The notes beneath the pieces are model-generated. The model searched no databases. It saw nothing but the letters and a program-made list of their open reading frames with translations, and had not been told where the DNA came from. From contig JBEKKX010000009.1 of NCBI GenBank assembly GCA_050010515.1, positions 1 through 64,000 on the forward strand: DNA of 64,000 nucleotides, in the 5' to 3' direction. Source of the DNA: Candidatus Bathyarchaeia archaeon. GTDB taxonomy: Archaea > Thermoproteota > Bathyarchaeia > Bathyarchaeales > Bathycorpusculaceae. The translations under genes and the position numbers were made by a program. Each line of letters opens with the position of its first letter. Position 1 is the first letter of the stretch. Shown here one piece after another: positions 27,814 through 36,005 of this stretch.

Positions 27814-28668
27814 TTAAATAACTTTTAACTGTTTCAAAGCTTCAAAAGCCATGTCTATCGCTCTTAATGCTGTATCCTCTGGAAAACGATATCTATTCAT
27901 GACAAACTCAGCAGCAGTCGAGGGATTTTGAATTAATCCAATAATCTTTTTGTCATTAAGCAATTCATCAACCATTGGTTGCAAGTATCTTCTGACATAG
28001 TCCCTTTGGAATGCTAAAGTGTCTTTTTTGGTTGCCCACTCCAAGTCTGGAAGATTAGCCCATCGAGCATCGGCATATGAAGACATTGCCGCATGAGTCT
28101 GTTTGGCTTTTTCTACATCAAATCCATCCTTCAATGATTCAGCAATTTGGACTGGCGACTTGTTAGCAGCTTTGGAAACCCATTTCTTAGCTGTCTCTTC
28201 ATCCGCAAACTGCTTACCTAATAATTTATACAAAGTAATCCAATTGCTAGGGTGAGCCGACATGTCTCTTAGATTGTTTAGCAGTTGCAACTCATTGTAA
28301 AGCGGTTCGTCTATCCATTTGCCCCTCGCCAAATTCAAGGCATACCTTAAGTCGAAACCACCTTTGTATTTTTCAGCAATAGCCATTTTGTCAGTGTCGT
28401 TAAGTTCTGAGTTTATTTTGAAAAGCAGTGAATATTCAACGGCGAAAGCAGAGTTCAAAATACTGTTTTCATAATAGCCCATCATGAATTGACGACATGC
28501 ACTAATTAACTGCCCAATTGGTAACTTGTTAGGGTTTGGTGAGGTTTCCAAAGTTTCAATCTGTGGACAAGCATCAAAAACATATTGTACTTTCCGTTGC
28601 CGTTGCAACATCTTCTTTTCTATTTCCTTGGCTTTCTTTCTATCGATGATGCGCTTACTTTTCACCAA
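27814..28668 (-). CDS. HEPN-domain protein (putative RNase)
   Basis: ACRQFMMGYYENSILNSAFAVEYSL helix and LNNLRDMSAH (R-x4-H). Confidence 0.65.
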   Translation of the reverse strand: MVKSKRIIDRKKAKEIEKKMLQRQRKVQYVFDACPQIETLETSPNPNKLPIGQLISACRQFMMGYYENSILNSAFAVEYSLLFKINSELNDTDKMAIAEKYKGGFDLRYALNLARGKWIDEPLYNELQLLNNLRDMSAHPSNWITLYKLLGKQFADEETAKKWVSKAANKSPVQIAESLKDGFDVEKAKQTHAAMSSYADARWANLPDLEWATKKDTLAFQRDYVRRYLQPMVDELLNDKKIIGLIQNPSTAAEFVMNRYRFPEDTALRAIDMAFEALKQLKVI

Positions 28669-29057
28669 AGTTTGTCGCCTTCAGTTTCTTGACTAAGTTC
28701 GTGAGCTTTCTTGTATCCAAAAAGGAAAAATTGTGCACAATCCAAATGAGTTTTAACTCTTATATTTTCTATTTCTTGCATAATTAATGCTTTTACCACA
28801 AGCTCTGTAAATTCATGAACGTAAAACTCAATGGCTTCCACTCTTTTCTCAATAGCAAATAAGTAATGTCCGCCATCTGGAGGAGAACAAATGCCATCCT
28901 GCCCATTATCCTCAAGAGTCAAGCCTTTTTCTTTAATCAGTCTTCTAAATGCTTCGCTGTCACGCATATAAAATTGAATTTCGGCTGTATCCATTGGCAT
29001 CATATTACCTGTCTTCTGAGGTTCTGTTATTGTGAGTTTGTGTTGAAAGGATAGCAA
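28662..29057 (-). CDS. Hypothetical protein in the pAgo locus
   Basis: Open frame between pAgo and HEPN genes, overlapping the HEPN start by 7 nt; start may instead be ATG near 29003. Confidence 0.55.
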   Translation of the reverse strand: MLSFQHKLTITEPQKTGNMMPMDTAEIQFYMRDSEAFRRLIKEKGLTLEDNGQDGICSPPDGGHYLFAIEKRVEAIEFYVHEFTELVVKALIMQEIENIRVKTHLDCAQFFLFGYKKAHELSQETEGDKLW

Positions 29058-29061
29058 AGTT

Positions 29062-30582
29062 TTACATGTAGAATCGATATTCTGGTCGTGGAATTACTTC
29101 TTCAGGCACGTAAGCAAGAATTCTGCCGACCTCGCTAGCATACTCAAGAGTAATTGGGCTTCGAATGCAAAAGTCAGCACTATTCCAATTCATCTTTGTT
29201 AAAGAGAAAACTTCTTCACAAATGGTTTCTAACGATGCATCTCCATGATGCTCAACTATTTCTATAGGTGTTGGAACCCTTAGTCCTGGATATGTTTCGA
29301 GATAACGTGAATAGCCCTTAGTGTAAAGAAGATAGTTAGAAGTTCCCAACTGAACAACTGTTCCTCTTAAAGGTGGATAAATGCCTTTTCTCCGCATGAA
29401 TCTAATCCCCCGAGTTTCAATTGTAATAAAATCTTTAAGTTGGACACTTTGTGCCCCTGACTGGAAACCTTGCAGTTCATCTGGTTTATACCTAGAAGTT
29501 TTGTGCACAACAATTCTTCGGGGAAGTTGATGCATTTGATTATCGTATTCTTTTAGAACATCGACTATTAACTGACGTGCGCCCTCTTCCGTTAAATGAG
29601 GCGAGCCTGTTGTATAATCAAGAACTGCACGACTACCTTTGAGAACCAAACCTTCTCCTGTATAAGTAAAAACCTGAGCTACGCTTGACCTCATATCACC
29701 TTTGGAATTTGGCGGGTCTTTGTAGAAAGATACTCCGACGTAGCAAGTTCCGTTCTCCATACTAGCTAATTTCCAAGGATATCCTTCAGCTTTGTAATAT
29801 GTAGCTACCGCAAAATTCCACGCACGTGTGGCTGCATCTTGGAGACTTGGGTCAGAATTATCTGTCTTAAAAGTCCTAGGTCTAGCAAGCTGCGTAGGGA
29901 TATTAAGCATCATTGCTCCAGCCTTTATCAAACGACGAAGATTGCTGGCTTCATAAGTTCCTTCGATATCTTCTTCCTGAAACGGAACTAAGGTTTGCTG
30001 ACCAGTCTTACGGTGATTCCGAATCATGTCAATAATGTCTTTCTCTTTCTTCGTAAGTTTAACCCTTGCAGAAGAATCTCCTTGCTGTTCGGTGGAGCAG
30101 CAGTCCAATATTTCCTTAGGCAATGCACAGACAACAACTTGGGGATGTGGCTCTCTTCCCAAGTAATTTGAGAGTTTTCTAATAAACAAGTTTGCTGCTT
30201 CTTTCACTCTCTGTTGATAGTCTGCAACATTTAATATTGCCTTGATTTCATCGCTAACAATTAGCTCTATGCATTCTTCCTTTACCCGCAACTCGCAACC
30301 AAATACTTTTGTAAATCCTGGGAATTTTTGGAAGAGTGAAGAATTCTCTTTCTTAGCTGGAATTTCTCCTTGGCATTTTTGAACCCATTCTTTACATTGG
30401 TCGATTGTTTCTTTTGTCCCAACAATGCCCAATCTTATTGAAGAGGCAATAGCTCTTCTATTTTCATATAAACAAGGACCATAAGCAACCAACCCTTTTT
30501 TTGGGTCTATGTATCGTTTTCCATCTCCAAAAGTTAACGAAGGTTCATTTATGAAAATTGACCTGAAACATTTTGTTGGCAC
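29062..30582 (-). CDS. Short prokaryotic Argonaute (MID-PIWI, catalytically inactive)
   Basis: EPSLTFG, DPKKGLVAYGP, IPTQL, WNFAVATYYKA.GYPW, CYVGVSFY, VVHKTS, RGT, LTKMNWN, PITLEYA; no DEDX tetrad. Confidence 0.93.
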   Translation of the reverse strand: MPTKCFRSIFINEPSLTFGDGKRYIDPKKGLVAYGPCLYENRRAIASSIRLGIVGTKETIDQCKEWVQKCQGEIPAKKENSSLFQKFPGFTKVFGCELRVKEECIELIVSDEIKAILNVADYQQRVKEAANLFIRKLSNYLGREPHPQVVVCALPKEILDCCSTEQQGDSSARVKLTKKEKDIIDMIRNHRKTGQQTLVPFQEEDIEGTYEASNLRRLIKAGAMMLNIPTQLARPRTFKTDNSDPSLQDAATRAWNFAVATYYKAEGYPWKLASMENGTCYVGVSFYKDPPNSKGDMRSSVAQVFTYTGEGLVLKGSRAVLDYTTGSPHLTEEGARQLIVDVLKEYDNQMHQLPRRIVVHKTSRYKPDELQGFQSGAQSVQLKDFITIETRGIRFMRRKGIYPPLRGTVVQLGTSNYLLYTKGYSRYLETYPGLRVPTPIEIVEHHGDASLETICEEVFSLTKMNWNSADFCIRSPITLEYASEVGRILAYVPEEVIPRPEYRFYM

Positions 30583-30584
30583 TA

Positions 30585-31886
30585 TTATACAACCCCGTCC
30601 TCAGAAATCCCAACAAGCATAAGCGTTCCTGCTGGATTGGTATCAATTTCAATGGTGTTATTTCCGAAAGGAACACACAATTTAGTATCGAGTTTTGAGA
30701 GAAATTTTGCCCAAAATCTAACTGAACTTAGATATGAACTGTTATACTCTTTAGATAAATAACGGCTCATCAAGGAAGCGAGTTTTTCTTTTCGAATAGG
30801 CTTAATTCCGTCAGACGTGAATACTTTGGTTGGTTCTATTTTCAGAAAAAGTGCTTCGTTTATGTACATAAAGTTCAAGCTTGCTGCATAATGAACGCAA
30901 AAGATCACTTGTCCCTCTTTGCAAAAGGCTCTTGCAACTCTGCGTTCAACATACTTTGTTTTAGCTCGCCAACCAAAGACATAGTTTTTTCCTTCCTTAA
31001 GAAGGCAAATAAATCTATCATGGTCTCGGTCATAGCGCATGTTTCTTTTTCTGCAATACTTCTCCATAGCGAGATTAAGCAAGTAAATGATGTCGTTTCT
31101 GCTATCTTCATTTTTCAACAATTCAGAAGTGTTTTCTTCAGTAACCTCTCTTTTGTCTATTATTGGCGCAAAAATTGAAGAAGGGTCAGTTAAGTTATCA
31201 AACGTATAGAGTTTTCTGTTCTTAGGAAGAAAAGGGTGCTCCTCTACATCTGAGCCTAACTTCTGAAAAACTTGATTAACTCTTCTCAAATAAGTGGGAC
31301 TCGAATAAAGGGTGGGTGGTAAACTAATTATTGGAAAGAGATTTGACACCAAGTCTTCTTCTTTTTTATCTACGGGTTTAGGTTCAGCTAATACTTCTTC
31401 AGAAGCTTTTCCTATTATTTTGCCGTACTTCTGGACGTGTTCAACTAAATTTAGTACAATCTCTTTAAACTCACTTTCCACATATGAGCCGTCTGAAAGC
31501 ACCCTTTCACCATCAATTAATTCTCCATGCATGGCAACCCCAAATTTCCGCTGAGCAATTGCTCCCTTTTCAAATATTCTTTGGCATTTAGCATCTGCTA
31601 ACAGCTTGGGGTTTGCCACGACAATTTTGATATTTGCATCGGAATTTTGAACCAAAAACATATCTCTATAAAAATTCTGAAGGGATGCAGACCAAATTAC
31701 TTCGATGCATATGCTAATACCATCTTGGGTCATTGCCAAAATGTCTAGTTCATGACCTGACGACGGATATTCTTGTAATGAGGCACCTGTCCATTTTCTG
31801 AGATAATCACTAAGAATACCCTTTATTCTTTTATGCTGCTCGGATTCTGAAGAAGACAATTGCAGGTCACTTTGATTATTAATCAA
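30585..31886 (-). CDS. PD-(D/E)XK-like nuclease-APAZ fusion (short pAgo partner)
   Basis: C-terminal LVSNLFPI..LP.TLY / HYAA / LKIEPT.VFTSDG / EYNSSYL.VRFW typical of APAZ; N-terminal ESEQHKRIK...E...LDI...CIEVIWS. Confidence 0.8.
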   Translation of the reverse strand: MINNQSDLQLSSSESEQHKRIKGILSDYLRKWTGASLQEYPSSGHELDILAMTQDGISICIEVIWSASLQNFYRDMFLVQNSDANIKIVVANPKLLADAKCQRIFEKGAIAQRKFGVAMHGELIDGERVLSDGSYVESEFKEIVLNLVEHVQKYGKIIGKASEEVLAEPKPVDKKEEDLVSNLFPIISLPPTLYSSPTYLRRVNQVFQKLGSDVEEHPFLPKNRKLYTFDNLTDPSSIFAPIIDKREVTEENTSELLKNEDSRNDIIYLLNLAMEKYCRKRNMRYDRDHDRFICLLKEGKNYVFGWRAKTKYVERRVARAFCKEGQVIFCVHYAASLNFMYINEALFLKIEPTKVFTSDGIKPIRKEKLASLMSRYLSKEYNSSYLSSVRFWAKFLSKLDTKLCVPFGNNTIEIDTNPAGTLMLVGISEDGVV

Positions 31887-32436: not shown

Positions 32437-32838
32437 CTAAATCAATTCAAGCATGCTTTGAACTGTAATTATCCTAATTCCCTTGTAATCCTGTAAAGCT
32501 AAAAGATGTTTGTCTCCCGTCACAATTATGTCGGCGTTTCCATCGTAAGCTGTTTCAATAATCATATCGTCTTTGGGGTCTTCTTTGACTGCCTTGAGCT
32601 TTGACTTCACATTTATAACATCGGCTGATCGTTTCAGCGCATTAATAGTCTCTTTGATTTCCGCATTGGTTGTTTTGAGTTGCGGTCGACTAAGTACACT
32701 GACAAGCTCCTCCAAAATTAAGTCAGAAGTAACAATGGCAAATCGGTTCGCCAATCCTCGTTGGAAAAGCTCTCTTGATTTGCCGTTGGAAATTGTGGCG
32801 CTCACCAAAACGTTGGTGTCAAGAACGACCCTGAGCAT
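32437..32838 (-). CDS. PIN-domain (VapC-like) toxin
   Basis: VVLDTNVLVSA, DPKDDMIIETA, IVTGDKHLL. Confidence 0.92.
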   Translation of the reverse strand: MLRVVLDTNVLVSATISNGKSRELFQRGLANRFAIVTSDLILEELVSVLSRPQLKTTNAEIKETINALKRSADVINVKSKLKAVKEDPKDDMIIETAYDGNADIIVTGDKHLLALQDYKGIRIITVQSMLELI

Positions 32839-32851
32839 GTAATCATCTTAG

Positions 32852-33124
32852 TTATTTGCGGTGGCGCTCTTTTCTAACTTCTGAAACTATCTCTTGGATT
32901 TCTTCCTCTGAAATGTTTAGATGTTTTTTGTCCATCATTTCAAAGATGTGGTCCCATTCTTTTTTTATGTCAGGGAGTTCGAGCTTTTTGAGTATGATGG
33001 TATCGCCTTTGCCGTAGACGAGGAACTTGTTTTTCGGTTTTATTTTAAGCTGTTTTCTTATTGACTGCGGGATGACTACTTGCCCTTTTTCGCTGATTGT
33101 GGTTACTTGTGGTTCTTCGCTCAT
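32852..33124 (-). CDS. AbrB/MazE-family antitoxin
   Basis: TTISEKGQVVIPQSIRKQLKI; directly upstream of the PIN gene. Confidence 0.9.
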   Translation of the reverse strand: MSEEPQVTTISEKGQVVIPQSIRKQLKIKPKNKFLVYGKGDTIILKKLELPDIKKEWDHIFEMMDKKHLNISEEEIQEIVSEVRKERHRK

Positions 33125-33243
33125 ATTGCATCAGTAAGAATAGTTTACTTTCATACTATTAACAGTTGCGAAAACAAAATCACAAACATTTGCAAAAAGT
33201 TTGTGGATTAAAAGATAATCACTTTCACTCCCCCCTCCACTGA

Positions 33244-33431
33244 TTGAAAAAGTCGTTTCTGCGATTGTTTAATAGGTGAAAACAGTCGATTCTGCTATTC
33301 TTAGTATGTTGAAAAAGCATTGTTTCATGTTGAAAGTGCGGGACGTTTCGTCTATGTTGAACTATGTTGAATCATATTTGGCGTCTATTAGGAGCATCTA
33401 GTAGACTAGGAGGGTAGCTTGTGCACACACA
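33244..33431 (+). repeat. Left copy of ~190-bp imperfect inverted repeat with four ATGTTGAA boxes
   Basis: Reverse-complement match to 38686-38870, including the exact 24-mer TGAACTATGTTGAATCATATTTGG. Confidence 0.9.
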
Positions 33432-33723
33432 TAAACGGGCACCTGACCCTGACAGGTTAATCGCTATGGAATGGCGAATAATGCGTGACATGAAGAAGAT
33501 GCTCCGTGACACTAACCTTTCAGTTGCAGAGAGGACACGGTTGGCAAGTGCCTTGGGTTACCACGCAACCGTTCTAAACAAGTTGCTCAATCAGAAGGGG
33601 GAGGCGGCACACTTTAATGAAGCAACATTGGGCGATTTTATCAGCGATATTGATAAAAGCGCACGAACTCTGGTGAGAAGGGATTTTGAGGTTTGGACGA
33701 GAAAGCTTTCCTTGAAAAAATAA
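33421..33723 (+). CDS. Small helical protein upstream of TerL (possible terminase small subunit)
   Basis: 100 aa, overlaps the TerL start; assignment is positional only. Confidence 0.5.
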   Translation: MHTHKRAPDPDRLIAMEWRIMRDMKKMLRDTNLSVAERTRLASALGYHATVLNKLLNQKGEAAHFNEATLGDFISDIDKSARTLVRRDFEVWTRKLSLKK

Positions 33724-35162
33724 CCAGCAACCTATCATTCGCCGCCTCAATATGTGAAGATTTACTGCAGAGGCCAACAGCGTTAAGGCAATTGCTCGCC
33801 CACAAAGAAGTTGCCAGCAAACTTATCGCTGACCCCGTCTTTTTCGCCGTTTTAATGTGCGGGGACAAATGGCTTATCGAGGCACCTGAACATCAGAAGC
33901 TTCTTCGGGATGTAAGCCCGAGGCAAGTGGCGGTTTGCGGTCGGGGATGGGGCAAAAGCTTGGTTTTCAGCAGAAAAAACCTCTGGCTCCTATACACTAA
34001 GCCCAAAGTTGAAAGCCTCATCATAAGCAGCACCCAACGCCAATCCATGATAATGTTTGATTACTGCTACTTCACCATCCTAGCTAACCCGCTTCTAAGG
34101 CAGATGGTTCAGAGACCTGGAACAACCCGCACAACCATAAAGCTCAAGCCTCCGCTGGGTGGAAAAATCGTTGCCCTGCCATGCTCAAAAGACAAGCTCA
34201 GAGGCTACCATCCAGACTACGTCTTCATAGACGAAGCATCAATTGTCCCAGGCGAAATGATAACAAGCGAAATAATGATGATGCTCACAAAACCAGGCGC
34301 AAGCCTAGTCATGAGCGGCACACCCATGGGCCAAGACCACGTTTTCCGCAAAGCCTTCCTGGACACAAAACGCTACAGCGTACACCACTACGCAAGCTAC
34401 CAAAGCCCACTTGTCAGCCAAACGCAACTGGACGAATGGAAAGAAGTAATGACAAAAGAAGAATGGCAACGCGAAGTCGAAGGCATATGGATAGAAGCAA
34501 CCCACACATTCTTCCCCATGGACCTAATCGTAACCTGCGTAGACCCAGAGCTAGGCAACCCAGACTCGCCAAGCACCTACATCGAAGACATCGAAAAAGT
34601 CACGCCCCATCAGAAACTCAATGGACCCTATTACGCGGGATTAGACCTTGGCAAACAAGTCGACTACAGCGTGCTTGCAGTGATTCAGAAGAGCTACAGC
34701 GGCGAGCTGAGGCTGGTGCATAAACGCCAGTTTCCCTTGGGCACAAACTACCCCCAAGTCATCGGCTACATAGCCAGAGCGCAGCAGGTGTTCAACTTTG
34801 AAGGTTTATACGTGGACAAGGGCTGCATAGGCGACGCCGTTATCGATGAACTAAACAACATCTACATACCCGCCGTTGAAGGCGTTTTCTTTACAGACAC
34901 GGAAAAAGAGAATATGCTAAACAACCTTAAACTGCTCATGGAAAAGAAACTCCTCAAAATAGCAGGCGACGACAAAACCCTAATCGCTCAAATCAACGAA
35001 CAACAATACGAGTACCTGCAGCCTAAAACGGCTCAAGAACGAATCCACCTCAAATTCTGGCACCCACACGGAAGACACGACGACCAACTAATGGCTCTAG
35101 CACTAGCATGTAAAGCAGCCACAAACGCGGCACCGCCCGGCGTCGGCGCCATCATTCTCTAA
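33693..35162 (+). CDS. Terminase large subunit (ATPase plus RNase H-like nuclease)
   Basis: Walker A GRGWGKS, LRG, Walker B YVFIDEA, SGTP, nuclease GLDLG..DYS, VD, HDDQLMALALA. Confidence 0.92.
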   Translation: MDEKAFLEKITSNLSFAASICEDLLQRPTALRQLLAHKEVASKLIADPVFFAVLMCGDKWLIEAPEHQKLLRDVSPRQVAVCGRGWGKSLVFSRKNLWLLYTKPKVESLIISSTQRQSMIMFDYCYFTILANPLLRQMVQRPGTTRTTIKLKPPLGGKIVALPCSKDKLRGYHPDYVFIDEASIVPGEMITSEIMMMLTKPGASLVMSGTPMGQDHVFRKAFLDTKRYSVHHYASYQSPLVSQTQLDEWKEVMTKEEWQREVEGIWIEATHTFFPMDLIVTCVDPELGNPDSPSTYIEDIEKVTPHQKLNGPYYAGLDLGKQVDYSVLAVIQKSYSGELRLVHKRQFPLGTNYPQVIGYIARAQQVFNFEGLYVDKGCIGDAVIDELNNIYIPAVEGVFFTDTEKENMLNNLKLLMEKKLLKIAGDDKTLIAQINEQQYEYLQPKTAQERIHLKFWHPHGRHDDQLMALALACKAATNAAPPGVGAIIL

Positions 35163-35216
35163 CAGTAACCTGCATCGCAAAAACTAAAATCAAAAAATAA
35201 AGAAGAGGGAGGCTAA

Positions 35217-36005
35217 TTAGCTTACTTCGTTATTTTCGATCTTTCTAGCCATTTCAGCAATTATCTTTGTGAACGGATGGTCAGGTTTATCTGTGACAAA
35301 TATCAAGTTGCCTTCAGCTCTTAGGATTTCGCAGAAACAAGGCACGATTCCCAGCATGGGCACGTGATAAACAGTTTTTACTTTGTTGCTCATTTCGGCT
35401 TTCTTAGCTGTAGCTGATGAATCAAGCACTTTGTTTAGCACAAGTCCCGTTTTCTTCTCAAACAAGTTATACAGCTCCACTAGCATTCGTTTTGTTCCGT
35501 CCACATCGGAGCGGTCACCAGTTGTTGCCACAACCACGAAGTCAGCGGCTACAATAGCGTTTATTGAGGAATACTGCAGTCCTGGGCTTGTGTCAAAGAA
35601 CAAGTAATCAAACTTTTGATTCTTAAGCAATGTTTCCCTAAGGGCAAGCAGCCTTCCTAAAGCACGCATTTCCCATTTTCTATCCTTTCCAGACATGTCT
35701 CGGATTGCTTCAGTTGCAGGGTTTGCTAAGCCAGCGAAAAACTTGCCGTTTCCAGGAATCCTGCTGCTTAAATCTACAAGAACTTTTTCGACGTCACAGG
35801 TATTGTTTAGGTAATCGTTAAGCCAGCATTCGACGTTTTCAGCTTTCAGAATGGAGAACAAGCTTGGTGCCCGAAAATCAAGATCAAACACAGCAACTTT
35901 CTTGCCGTTTTTAGCCAAAGTAGCTGCTAAGTTTAAGGAAAGAAGCGTTTTTCCCGTTCCGCCTTTATATGAATGTACAGCGATTATTTTGCTCATAATT
36001 TTCAA
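35217..36005 (-). CDS. MinD/ParA-family ATPase
   Basis: SYKGGTGKT, DLDFRAP, FDTSPG, LNKV. Confidence 0.9.
   Translation of the reverse strand: MKIMSKIIAVHSYKGGTGKTLLSLNLAATLAKNGKKVAVFDLDFRAPSLFSILKAENVECWLNDYLNNTCDVEKVLVDLSSRIPGNGKFFAGLANPATEAIRDMSGKDRKWEMRALGRLLALRETLLKNQKFDYLFFDTSPGLQYSSINAIVAADFVVVATTGDRSDVDGTKRMLVELYNLFEKKTGLVLNKVLDSSATAKKAEMSNKVKTVYHVPMLGIVPCFCEILRAEGNLIFVTDKPDHPFTKIIAEMARKIENNEVS

What the first reader, a model, noticed from the sequence alone, without database searches (positions are those of the whole stretch)
31400..31886. Unusual effector on APAZ: CoiA-like PD-(D/E)XK domain lacking the catalytic Lys
Seen: N-terminus SESEQHKRIK...QEYP...ELDILA...ICIEVIWSAS. Known: CoiA-like nuclease domains have an ES..H...K helix and a D...IEVQxS core, unlike the Mrr (D...QxK) or DUF4365/DREN (D...QxK) heads described on APAZ. 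Inference: a different nuclease family has been recruited as the short-pAgo effector. The ExI (not ExK or ExQ) site suggests a variant active site, or an inactive sensor that relays to the HEPN protein.
Basis: partly seen in the sequence, partly recalled or inferred. Interest (0 to 1): 0.72.

Follow-up and report, generated by a model that had tools for sequence, protein, structure and literature searches.

The report
New nuclease head on Argonaute partner
An archaeal short-Argonaute defence operon carries on its partner protein a previously unannotated restriction-enzyme-like domain with an unusual active site, and the same domain also sits at the front of many other archaeal immune-type proteins.

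Summary
Residues 1-160 of the 433-aa protein (window 31886..30585, minus strand) carry the quoted motifs, followed by an APAZ domain and a short pAgo gene. [quoted passage not shown] Its nearest solved structures are Cdn1, BsaWI, McrC and Can2 (Z 8.4-9.0).

Asp48 and Glu62 are essentially invariant. The canonical Lys position (64) is Ile or Val in 135 of 139 representatives and never Lys, Gln or Arg. Helix 1 carries an invariant E14-x3-H18-x3-K22 face.

No Pfam, PADLOC, NCBIfam or PHROG model matches the domain, including CoiA_nuc, DUF4365 and Mrr_cat. "CoiA-like" therefore rests on motif resemblance only.

The domain family is small (167 clusters), was found only in archaeal records where organisms are named, and is always N-terminal. 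Only 12 of 150 representatives carry APAZ. Others carry NACHT/STAND, AbiTii, AAA or unknown C-termini, and one subclade follows Cas1.

Best reading: a modular effector nuclease with a relocated catalytic base, switched on by pAgo as in SPARDA and SPARHA. The HEPN gene is real, but it is present in only 2 of 27 related loci, so a relay to HEPN is unlikely. This is a new variant of a known kind.

The parts
30585..31886 (-). Gene for the 433-aa N-domain-APAZ protein. The probable true start is TTG at 31857-31859, giving 424 aa.
   Evidence: ORF. About 90 full-length homologues at 43-99% identity, where named from Bathyarchaeota/Bathyarchaeia and Asgard records. Homologues start at about residue 10.
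31413..31856 (-). N-terminal domain (residues 11-158): PD-(D/E)XK-fold domain with no matching family model.
   Evidence: AF2 model from 56 sequences, pLDDT 90.2, pTM 0.86, topology helix-3 strands-helix-strand. Nearest structures are Cdn1 Z 9.0, BsaWI 8.7, McrC 8.4 and Can2 7.9-8.7. No Pfam, PADLOC or PDB sequence hit.
31821..31847 (-). Helix-1 face E14-x3-H18-x3-K22 (codons 31845-47, 31833-35, 31821-23). Proposed to supply the metal-binding Glu and the missing basic catalytic residue.
   Evidence: E14 is E in 105 of 110, H18 in 113 of 113 and K22 in 110 of 114 representatives. E14 lies at the N-cap, and H18 and K22 lie in helix 1 of the model. The catalytic role is inferred.
31695..31745 (-). 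Core motif: D48 (31743-45) at the start of strand 2; E62-V63-I64 (31695-31703) in strand 3. This is a D...E-x-I variant of D...(D/E)-x-K.
   Evidence: D48 135 of 135; E62 138 of 139; position 64 I111, V24, A2, M1, T1 of 139. Strand positions.
31770..31772 (-). E39, a further near-invariant acidic residue beside strand 1.
   Evidence: E in 131 of 132 representatives. Its role is inferred.
30639..31409 (-). APAZ domain (residues 160-416), joined to the head by a variable, charged linker.
   Evidence: PADLOC Aga_REase-PNTD1-PNTD2 PDLC02415 E 2.9e-42 over residues 160-416, and ten further APAZ-type models. Closest solved chain is HNH-APAZ 9om4_A, E 5.3e-33 (query 163-415); DREN-APAZ chains about 1e-11. 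Linker variability is visible.
29062..30582 (-). Short pAgo (MID-PIWI), 506 aa. Its start lies 3 nt after the stop of the APAZ gene.
   Evidence: PADLOC pAgo_I E 6.5e-155. Closest solved chain is the SPARHA Ago 9om4_B, E 5.4e-82, then SPARDA Agos. pAgo follows the N-domain-APAZ gene in 40 of 40 related loci with at least 300 nt downstream.
28662..29057 (-). p131: a 131-aa protein of unknown family, 4 nt downstream of pAgo.
   Evidence: ORF. No Pfam, PADLOC or NCBIfam hit. The Atlas gave only weak leads. Found only in the near-identical loci L011 and L012.
27814..28668 (-). p284: HEPN-fold protein with an invariant N-L-R-D-M-x-A-H-P-S-N-W (R-x4-H) motif. It overlaps the end of p131 by 7 nt.
   Evidence: Alignment of 17 sequences: R134 invariant, H139 at least 90%. 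AF2 pLDDT 90.1. VIA-wide top hit is HEPN AF_0298, Z 13.8, rmsd 2.4, 111 aligned, and most of the top 14 rows are HEPN proteins. No Pfam, PADLOC or NCBIfam hit; Foldseek found nothing at E<=0.001.

Best explanation
The first 150 residues of the APAZ protein form the catalytic 'warhead' of a short-pAgo abortive-infection system of the nuclease-APAZ (clade S2B) type.

Shown:
- The domain has the restriction-endonuclease-like fold.
- It keeps the metal-binding acids in the canonical places: E14 on helix 1, D48 at strand 2 and E62 in strand 3.
- It has Ile or Val where the canonical Lys sits.
- It carries an invariant His18 and Lys22 one and two helical turns after E14.
- It is tethered by a variable linker to an APAZ domain, and the partner gene is a short pAgo.
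- The same head is fused N-terminally to STAND NTPases, AbiTii and many other C-termini.

Inferred:
- H18 and/or K22 replace the missing strand-3 Lys. Relocated catalytic residues are a known kind of variation in this superfamily.
- The enzyme cuts nucleic acid, most likely DNA, in a metal-dependent and sequence-unspecific way.
- It stays silent in the APAZ:pAgo heterodimer. It is switched on when guide-directed target binding by pAgo drives oligomer or filament assembly that brings the heads together, as shown for SPARDA and SPARHA. The outcome would be collateral degradation and death or dormancy of the infected cell.
For: [quoted passage not shown] Weak Foldseek rows (best E 3.5e-3) are mostly PD-(D/E)XK proteins: NucS, VRR_NUC, EcoO109I, MspJI, XisH, Bax1, Can2 and Hjc. 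In VIA-wide, 8 of the top 10 rows are PD-(D/E)XK-fold chains, including BsaWI 8.7, Can2 8.7, McrC 8.4 and Cdn1 8.4. The second look puts Cdn1 at 9.0.

Active-site conservation over the 150 representatives: D48 135/135, E62 138/139, E14 105/110, H18 113/113, K22 110/114, E39 131/132. This holds across architectures that share nothing else.

System context: APAZ is closest to the HNH-APAZ and DREN-APAZ chains. pAgo is closest to the SPARHA and SPARDA Agos. pAgo is directly downstream in 40 of 40 loci with room.

Modular effector behaviour: the domain is N-terminal in 150 of 150 representatives. Their C-termini fall into 44 BLAST-unlinked groups, including APAZ, AbiTii, NACHT-pentapeptide-TFIIB, nSTAND3 and AAA. 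Neighbours include Cas1, SIR2, SMODS, AbiEi and a DNA methylase. Distribution is patchy: 4 of 301 genomes of the class and 0 of 13 other genomes of the genus.

Precedents read in papers. Lys or Glu migration in PD-(D/E)XK enzymes: passages of PMC3424549 and PMC1189080. Target-triggered filaments that activate the nuclease heads: passages of PMC12738770 and of 10.1101/2025.04.08.647717.
Against: No enzymatic data exist. The canonical Lys is absent, so loss of activity cannot be excluded from sequence alone.

Structural matches are middling: Z is at most 9.0, the tool's own note says best Z of 7-8 is common for unmatched models, and Foldseek has no row at E<=0.001.

I could not read model coordinates. 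Whether H18 or K22 actually reaches the D48/E62 site was not measured. K22 is two turns from E14 and may be too far. Other conserved basic residues are alternatives: K87 (130/140), K107 (127/136), R103 (118/138).

The most conserved loop (Y40-P-S-S-G-H45) is the least confident part of the model.

Substrate (DNA or RNA) and oligomerisation are taken by analogy from bacterial systems with unrelated heads.
Confidence: 0.6

Rival explanations
1. The head is a catalytically dead PD-(D/E)XK fold that serves as a sensor, adaptor or oligomerisation module. In this operon it passes the pAgo signal to the HEPN protein p284 (perhaps through p131), which would be the real effector.
For: The strand-3 Lys is missing in every member. 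A HEPN-fold protein with an invariant R-x4-H motif is encoded in the same tightly packed transcription unit. Non-catalytic restriction-endonuclease-like folds exist: the RNA polymerase subunit chain 8q3b_E is among the structural matches.
Against: D48, E62, E14, H18, K22 and E39 are 95-100% conserved across unrelated architectures. Dead domains usually do not keep such residues. p131 and p284 are found in 2 of 27 related pAgo loci with at least 400 nt downstream, both at least 97% identical to the window. p284 relatives in another genome of the genus are not next to a pAgo, and the small gene beside one of them is unrelated to p131. An N-terminal position on STAND NTPases is the usual place of effectors.
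Confidence: 0.08
2. The head is a true, specific relative of the CoiA competence nuclease family (Pfam CoiA_nuc, PF06054). It would be closer to CoiA than to other PD-(D/E)XK families, with the CoiA E-x-Q changed to E-x-I.
For: CoiA is described as a PD-ExQ variant without the strand-3 Lys (passages of PMC1189080). The order of motifs is similar: acidic residue and basic residues on helix 1, then D, then E-x-(non-Lys)-x-S/T, with S or T at position 66 in 109 of 133. A DUF820 chain (3ot2_A) appears among the structural matches at Z 6.2. That DUF820 belongs with COG4636, the family PMC1189080 names as CoiA's closest, is my recollection and comes from no call.
Against: PF06054 is not among the families listed for the 56 domain sequences at E<=10, nor for the window's domain alone. 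It finds nothing in the window's genome or in 20 relatives, while it rings in 3 control genomes. Q is never seen at position 64. R74, the nearest conserved Arg on helix 2, where CoiA might carry its conserved Arg, is R in only 63 of 137; this correspondence is my inference. The nearest solved structures are other families. The host range found here (archaea) and the defence context differ from what PMC3424549 lists for CoiA (Bacillus, Lactobacillus).
Confidence: 0.15
3. The head is an active enzyme, but not a collateral DNase. It could be an RNA-specific or structure-specific nuclease (for instance a DNA-end processing enzyme like Cas4), or a phosphodiesterase acting on a small nucleotide.
For: One subclade of the family sits directly after a Cas1 gene in 7 loci. 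My recollection, from no call here, is that Cas4, a PD-(D/E)XK enzyme, often occupies that position. The unusual E/H/K/E/D/E residue set could mean another chemistry. DREN of SPARDA cuts RNA as well as DNA (passages of 10.1101/2023.06.08.544223).
Against: Nothing here speaks for a small-molecule substrate. The closest structural neighbours are DNases: Can2, Cdn1, McrC and type II restriction enzymes. The closest pAgo/APAZ relatives drive DNA degradation (PMC12738770).
Confidence: 0.12

Closest known systems
SPARHA (short pAgo + HNH-APAZ; PDB 9om4)
   Same: It is the closest solved relative of both proteins by sequence: APAZ E 5.3e-33 and pAgo E 5.4e-82. The gene order is the same, and a nuclease head sits N-terminal to APAZ. 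The SPARHA head is likewise found on STAND ATPases and other immune platforms (PMC12738770).
   Different: The head here has a PD-(D/E)XK fold and is not an HNH finger. The match to 9om4_A covers only residues 163-415 of the query. The host is archaeal. Activation by filaments is inferred for this system and not shown.
SPARDA (short pAgo + DREN/DUF4365-APAZ)
   Same: It is a PD-(D/E)XK-superfamily head on APAZ with a short pAgo of the same clade. It is the mechanistic model of target-triggered collateral nuclease activity.
   Different: PF14280 is not listed for any of 56 domain sequences, and hhalign gives probability 0.6% against a two-sequence DUF4365-APAZ profile. DREN has a D...Q-x-K site (D41/Q60/K62); this head has D...E-x-I plus a helix-1 E-H-K face.
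CoiA_nuc (PF06054)
   Same: It is a PD-(D/E)XK domain that also lacks the strand-3 Lys (PD-ExQ; PMC1189080), with a similar order of motifs.
   Different: No HMM match. Position 64 is I or V and never Q. CoiA is a bacterial competence protein; this is a modular head in archaeal immune-type genes.
Nuclease domains of Cdn1, Can2/Card1, McrC and BsaWI-type restriction enzymes
   Same: These are the nearest solved folds: Cdn1 Z 9.0 (rmsd 3.3, 120 aligned), BsaWI 8.7, McrC 8.4, Can2 7.9-8.7. By their entry titles, several are effectors switched on by a separate sensor module.
   Different: Identity is 9-13% and Z values are middling. That those enzymes keep a strand-3 Lys is my recollection and comes from no call.
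N-terminal nuclease effectors of antiviral STAND (Avs-type) NTPases
   Same: The same head-NTPase-repeat sensor layout is seen in 8 of 88 scanned representatives, with NACHT or nSTAND3 plus pentapeptide, TFIIB or HEAT repeats.
   Different: The head matches no Pfam PD-(D/E)XK model. These proteins are uncharacterised, and where organisms are named the family is archaeal.

Membership tests
PD-(D/E)XK (restriction endonuclease-like) superfamily | [quoted passage not shown] | tested here: met
   DSSP of the AF2 model: H6-23, strand residues at 25-26, E39-42, E48-54, H59-71, E76-81; pLDDT 90.2.
PD-(D/E)XK (restriction endonuclease-like) superfamily | Structural similarity to solved members | tested here: met
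   8 of the top 10 VIA-wide rows are members, Z 7.6-8.7. Cdn1 scores Z 9.0 in the second look. Foldseek rows are mostly members but none reaches E<=0.001. The Z values are middling.
PD-(D/E)XK (restriction endonuclease-like) superfamily | Asp at the start of strand 2 and Asp/Glu in strand 3 | tested here: met
   D48 135/135 and E62 138/139; positions relative to strands.
PD-(D/E)XK (restriction endonuclease-like) superfamily | Lys two residues after the strand-3 acid | tested here: not met
   Position 64 is I111, V24, A2, M1, T1 of 139. Variant sites with relocated residues are accepted members of the superfamily (PMC3424549).
PD-(D/E)XK (restriction endonuclease-like) superfamily | Metal-dependent phosphodiester cleavage | not testable with these tools
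   Needs biochemistry.
CoiA_nuc (PF06054) | Match to the family HMM | tested here: not met
   Not listed for any of 56 domain sequences at E<=10 (25 of 26 families shown, the one unshown has at most one member). No hit for the window's domain. 0 of 21 genomes including the window's own, while 3 control genomes ring.
CoiA_nuc (PF06054) | PD-E-x-Q active site (PMC1189080) | tested here: not met
   No Q at position 64 in 139 sequences.
CoiA_nuc (PF06054) | Profile-profile or structural similarity to CoiA itself | not tested
   No CoiA sequence or model could be obtained. The control hits come without loci.
DUF4365 / DREN (PF14280) | Match to the family HMM or profile | tested here: not met
   Not listed for any of 56. 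hhalign against a DUF4365-APAZ profile gives probability 0.6%, but that profile has only 2 sequences.
Mrr_cat (PF04471) / Mrr-like SMEK head | Match to the family HMM | tested here: not met
   Not listed for any of 56. No SMEK sequence was available for a profile comparison.
Short pAgo system with effector-APAZ partner (clade S2B type) | APAZ domain in the partner protein | tested here: met
   Eleven PADLOC models match, most of them APAZ-partner (Aga) models; best E 2.9e-42. PDB APAZ chains match.
Short pAgo system with effector-APAZ partner (clade S2B type) | Adjacent short (MID-PIWI) pAgo | tested here: met
   PADLOC pAgo_I E 6.5e-155, 506 aa. Adjacent in 40 of 40 loci with room. Loss of the catalytic tetrad was not checked residue by residue.
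Short pAgo system with effector-APAZ partner (clade S2B type) | Guide- and target-triggered activation of the effector | not testable with these tools
   Needs biochemistry.
HEPN (for p284) | R-x4-6-H motif | tested here: met
   R134 invariant and H139 at least 90% in 17 sequences.
HEPN (for p284) | HEPN helical fold | tested here: met
   AF_0298 Z 13.8, TT1696 12.6, ST0689 12.1; most of the top 14 rows are HEPN. The tool warns that helical proteins need Z of about 13. Foldseek found nothing and no Pfam HEPN model matched.

The most novel reading that the evidence does not exclude
The domain founds an undescribed family of immune effector nucleases, so far found in archaeal records. In it, the catalytic base of the PD-(D/E)XK site has moved from strand 3 to a His/Lys pair on helix 1 (E-x3-H-x3-K). 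The family is used as an interchangeable warhead by more than forty unrelated sensor or scaffold modules: APAZ/pAgo, NACHT and nSTAND3 NTPases, AbiTii, a giant AAA protein next to SIR2, and a protein that follows Cas1 where a Cas4-like nuclease might be expected. In this window it may even work beside a second, HEPN-type RNase in one operon, giving a two-effector Argonaute system.
Probability: 0.4. Interest if true: 0.65.

Novelty: new variant of a known kind. Interest (0 to 1): 0.55.

Why it matters
Short pAgo systems are being dissected one effector at a time (SIR2, TIR, DREN, HNH). A 2025 paper still lists "additional uncharacterized effectors" in clade S2B (PMC12738770).

This finding gives one such effector a fold, a residue map for mutagenesis and a family of 167 clusters. 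It also shows that the head is mainly used outside Argonaute systems.

If the head is active, it would document a new active-site arrangement in a very well studied nuclease superfamily. It would also provide an archaeal (Bathyarchaeia and Asgard) counterpart of SPARDA and SPARHA. That would be of interest for the evolution of Argonaute immunity and for target-triggered nuclease tools.

Tried and rejected
Each time it was turned back because the queue was full. It never ran, so nothing is known from it.
- Model coordinates are not readable in the script box. Distances between H18/K22 and D48/E62 could not be measured.
- A CoiA profile could not be built. PF06054 rang only in control genomes that yield no loci.
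- The single-sequence and 56-member Pfam scans gave only scattered noise: Rap_GAP in 13 members, EcoRV in 3, HindIII, DUF234 and DUF790 in 1 each.
- PADLOC on the head alone: 0 families.
- PHROGs on 56 members: no family in more than 4 members.
- PDB sequence searches with the head: 0 hits by phmmer and one chance row at E 0.47 by profile.
- ESM Atlas: first hit 0.92 to an unnamed cluster. The nearest named clusters, PDDEXK_11 (0.86) and PDDEXK_3 (0.85), are leads only.
- IMG/VR viral contigs: no relative of the head.
- Earlier notes of this scan: none, by place or by sequence.
- Foldseek on the p284 model: no row at E<=0.001.
- p131: no family and Atlas scores below 0.8.
- Base composition: the operon is only slightly AT-richer than its flanks (0.36-0.41 against 0.40-0.45), so this does not decide whether the island is foreign.
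- Literature: no paper holds Argonaute + Bathyarchaeota + APAZ. The six papers with Asgard + APAZ + Argonaute + nuclease were seen as a search listing only, and none appears to treat this head. 'PNTD1/PNTD2' gave nothing relevant. Supplements of the pAgo surveys were not opened and might list these proteins among 'APAZ only' or uncharacterised entries.
Full report
**Observation.** On the minus strand, window 31886..30585 encodes a 433-aa protein. Its N-terminus reads ...SSSESEQHKRIKGILSDYLRKWTGASLQEYPSSGHELDILAMTQDGISICIEVIWSAS.... Homologues begin at about residue 10, where the window has a TTG codon (31857-31859), so the real protein is probably 424 aa.

**Operon.**
- Residues 160-416 match eleven PADLOC models, most of them APAZ-partner (Aga) models. 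The best is Aga_REase-PNTD1-PNTD2 at E 2.9e-42. That match starts at position 139 of the profile, so the profile's own nuclease head does not align with ours.
- The next gene (30582..29062) is a 506-aa short pAgo (pAgo_I, E 6.5e-155).
- Two more genes follow with 4 nt spacing and a 7 nt overlap: p131 (29057..28662) and p284 (28668..27814).
- Against solved structures, the APAZ part is closest to the HNH-APAZ of SPARHA (9om4_A, E 5.3e-33, query 163-415), then to DREN-APAZ chains at about 1e-11.
- The pAgo is closest to the SPARHA Ago (9om4_B, E 5.4e-82), then to SPARDA Agos.
- The system therefore belongs with the nuclease-APAZ short pAgo systems of clade S2B.
- The surroundings are a PIN/MazE pair, a terminase-like gene and a ParA-like gene.

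**The head as a family.**
- The whole protein has about 90 full-length relatives at 43-99% identity. All are unnamed or 'hypothetical'. Where an organism is given, they come from Bathyarchaeota/Bathyarchaeia and Asgard records.
- In one-genome-per-species contigs, 9 loci were found: 8 in Bathyarchaeia and 1 in a Heimdallarchaeota MAG.
- A profile of the head alone (alignment A2) was scored against 1.84 billion representative proteins. It found 167 proteins at E<=0.001, of which 150 were listed.
- The head is N-terminal in 150 of these 150.
- Only 12 of the 150 carry APAZ, judged by a local HMM built from the APAZ columns of A1.
- The 95 representatives with at least 100 residues after the head fall into 44 groups that BLAST does not link: APAZ 8; an AbiTii group 8 (PF18864 in 6 of them); NACHT + pentapeptide + TFIIB-repeat 6; nSTAND3 2; a 1510-aa AAA protein group 2; TPR 1; the rest without any Pfam family.
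- In the 82 loci fetched from genomes and metagenomes, 81 hold the head by phmmer and 49 of those have APAZ. In 40 of the 40 with a complete APAZ and at least 300 nt downstream, a short pAgo follows.
- Neighbours of non-APAZ members include SMODS (L007), SIR2_2 and a DNA methylase (L069), AbiEi (L059) and Cas1 (L061).
- The head is rare and patchy: 4 of 301 genomes sampled from the class and 0 of 13 other genomes of the same genus. No relative was found in IMG/VR.
- In a quick tree of 56 heads, the APAZ-linked ones fall into two groups, with three non-APAZ heads nested in the larger one. That is 5 parsimony changes, although well-supported branches force only one. This hints at exchange of the head between platforms but does not prove it.

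**Fold.**
- AlphaFold2 on 56 aligned heads (A3) gives mean pLDDT 90.2 and pTM 0.86.
- The order of elements is helix (model 6-23), a short strand region, strands 39-42 and 48-54, helix 59-71, strand 76-81, then further helices. [quoted passage not shown]
- Foldseek against the PDB gives no row at E<=0.001. Its weak rows are mostly PD-(D/E)XK proteins, with NucS best at E 3.5e-3.
- VIA-align against 48,161 representative chains puts BsaWI (Z 8.7, rmsd 3.3, 132 aligned), Can2 (8.7), McrC (8.4), Cdn1 (8.4), BstEII, Can2, an RNA polymerase subunit chain (8q3b_E), VC1899 and Bax1 among the first ten. Receiver domains follow at about Z 7.
- The second look over Foldseek's list puts Cdn1 first at Z 9.0.
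- The Z values are middling by the tool's own yardstick. Taken together with the topology and the residue pattern, the fold assignment is sound; the nearest family is not settled.

**Active site.** Model numbering plus 10 gives protein numbering.

| Residue | Location in the model | Conservation over the 150 representatives |
|---|---|---|
| E14 | N-cap of helix 1 | E in 105/110 |
| H18 | helix 1 | H in 113/113 |
| K22 | helix 1 | K in 110/114 |
| E39 | beside strand 1 | E in 131/132 |
| H45 | loop before strand 2 | H in 91/134 (variable) |
| D48 | just before strand 2 | D in 135/135 |
| E62 | strand 3 | E in 138/139 |
| I64 | strand 3, the canonical Lys position | I 111, V 24, A 2, M 1, T 1 of 139; never K, Q or R |
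| W65 | after strand 3 | W in 134/137 |
| K87 | strand 4 | K in 130/140 |
| R103 | later helix | R in 118/138 |
| K107 | later helix | K in 127/136 |

- The three canonical acids are therefore kept under strong constraint in proteins that share nothing but this head. That argues for catalysis and against a dead scaffold.
- E14, H18 and K22 are spaced i, i+4, i+8, so they lie on one face of helix 1.
- My proposal that H18 and/or K22 take over the role of the strand-3 Lys is an inference. Relocation of Lys or Glu to neighbouring helices is documented for this superfamily: Pa4535 (PD-EXX-K), Cfr10I and EcoO109I in passages of PMC3424549, and COG4636 in passages of PMC1189080.
- I could not open the model's coordinates, so the geometry is untested.
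- The loop Y40-P-S-S-G-H45 is highly conserved in the APAZ clade yet is the least confident part of the model. It may be a mobile substrate or partner contact.

**Which family?**
- No library model matches. Pfam, PADLOC and PDB sequences found nothing with the head alone. NCBIfam found nothing on the whole protein.
- Pfam over all 56 heads at E<=10 lists no CoiA_nuc, no DUF4365 and no Mrr_cat. PHROGs has no family in more than 4 of 56 members.
- PF06054 (CoiA_nuc) finds nothing in the window's genome or in 20 relatives, although it rings in 3 control genomes.
- hhalign of A3 against two DUF4365-APAZ proteins gives probability 0.6%.
- The Atlas gives only leads to PDDEXK_11 and PDDEXK_3 clusters at 0.85-0.86.
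CoiA is indeed a PD-ExQ enzyme without the strand-3 Lys (PMC1189080). However, membership is not met by HMM, and Q is never seen at position 64. A profile-profile test against CoiA could not be run.

**Likely mechanism.**
- In SPARDA and SPARHA, the effector-APAZ:pAgo heterodimer binds an RNA guide. Pairing with target DNA remodels sensor loops (the 'beta-relay') and drives filament assembly. In the filaments the nuclease heads form tetramers that degrade DNA indiscriminately, which causes abortive infection (passages of 10.1101/2025.04.08.647717, and of PMC12738770).
- Here the APAZ and pAgo are the closest relatives of those proteins. The head is joined to APAZ by a variable charged linker, comparable to the flexible L0 linker described for SPARDA.
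- I therefore expect the same logic with a different warhead. All steps after 'heterodimer' are inferred.

**The HEPN gene.**
- p284 has 17 relatives and an invariant N-L-R-D-M-x-A-H-P-S-N-W motif (R-x4-H).
- Its AF2 model (pLDDT 90.1) matches HEPN proteins first in the wide structural search: AF_0298 Z 13.8, rmsd 2.4, 111 aligned; TT1696 12.6; ST0689 12.1; sacsin HEPN 10.7; HEPN toxins and Csm6 below. Foldseek found nothing.
- However, p131 and p284 occur in only 2 of the 27 related pAgo loci that have at least 400 nt downstream. Both loci are at least 97% identical to the window.
- p284 was found in 2 of 301 genomes of the class. The two copies in genome G174 are not beside a pAgo. The small gene beside one of them is unrelated to p131.
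- The pair is therefore a lineage-specific add-on or a neighbouring module. It is not part of the conserved system.

**Novelty.**
- Surveys describe SIR2, TIR, DUF4365/DREN, Mrr-like (SMEK), HNH, DHS-like and Schlafen heads on APAZ, many 'APAZ only' proteins, and 'additional uncharacterized effectors' in S2B (passages of PMC6299218, PMC9097488, PMC10810196, 10.1101/2023.06.08.544223 and PMC12738770).
- I found no paper that treats this head. Supplements were not opened, and subscription papers are not searched.
- It is a new variant of a known kind: a known system type with an unannotated PD-(D/E)XK family as warhead, and that family has a wider life outside Argonaute systems.

**Limits.** There is no biochemistry. 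There are no coordinates, no HHpred run and no CoiA, SMEK or Mrr profile. Structural Z scores are middling. The taxonomic range rests on the few named records. The complex prediction never ran because its queue was full.

Noticed in passing
L061:4778-6903 (also L062, L063, L066, L070, L081, L082): One subclade of proteins with this head (about 300-360 aa, unknown C-terminus) lies directly after, abutting or overlapping, a Cas1 gene. That Cas1 matches PF01867 at E 5.6e-51 and TIGR00287 at 168.6 bits against a cut-off of 71.7. The L061 Cas1 finds a counterpart in 7 loci. No CRISPR array was seen in the four loci checked, and the partner matches no Cas2 or Cas4 model. It may be a Cas4-like partner of a solo Cas1.
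   Followed up: partly
window 27814-29057 (minus strand): p131 (unknown family) and p284 (HEPN fold, R-x4-H) are packed behind the pAgo gene. The pair occurs only in this lineage (2 of 27 loci). p284 relatives elsewhere stand away from pAgo genes. It could be a toxin-antitoxin-like module or a second effector.
   Followed up: partly
window 32437-36005: Just upstream of the operon lie a PIN toxin (PF13470, E 5e-21) with a MazE/AbrB-type antitoxin, a terminase-large-subunit-like gene (PF03237, E 7.3e-6) and a ParA/MinD-type ATPase. This suggests a mobile or proviral remnant beside the defence genes.
   Followed up: no
P0117, P0124, P0125, P0136, P0168 and L068:891-4013: STAND proteins built as head - NACHT - pentapeptide repeats - C-terminal TFIIB (cyclin-like) repeat. 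A TFIIB repeat at the sensor end of an immune-type NTPase is unusual and might recognise a viral transcription factor or DNA.
   Followed up: no
L069:534-7571: A SIR2_2 gene (E 4.6e-25) directly precedes a 1513-aa protein made of the head plus an AAA-type NTPase, and a DNA methylase gene follows. This looks like an uncharacterised multi-gene defence locus.
   Followed up: no
L074:81-938; L008:5977-6267; L009:6076-6201: These are decayed copies. L074 has one frame joining the first about 80 residues of the head to the last about 215 residues of pAgo, which implies an internal deletion. L008 and L009 keep only fragments of the head.
   Followed up: no
window 31857-31886: The listed ORF starts at a TTG 9 codons upstream of where all homologues begin. 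The TTG at 31857-31859 (L10) is the more likely start.
   Followed up: partly
L007:1-2844: A head-containing 295-aa protein lies between a large helicase-like ORF with its own D...E-x-K motif near the C-terminus (no Pfam hit) and a SMODS-type nucleotidyltransferase gene.
   Followed up: no
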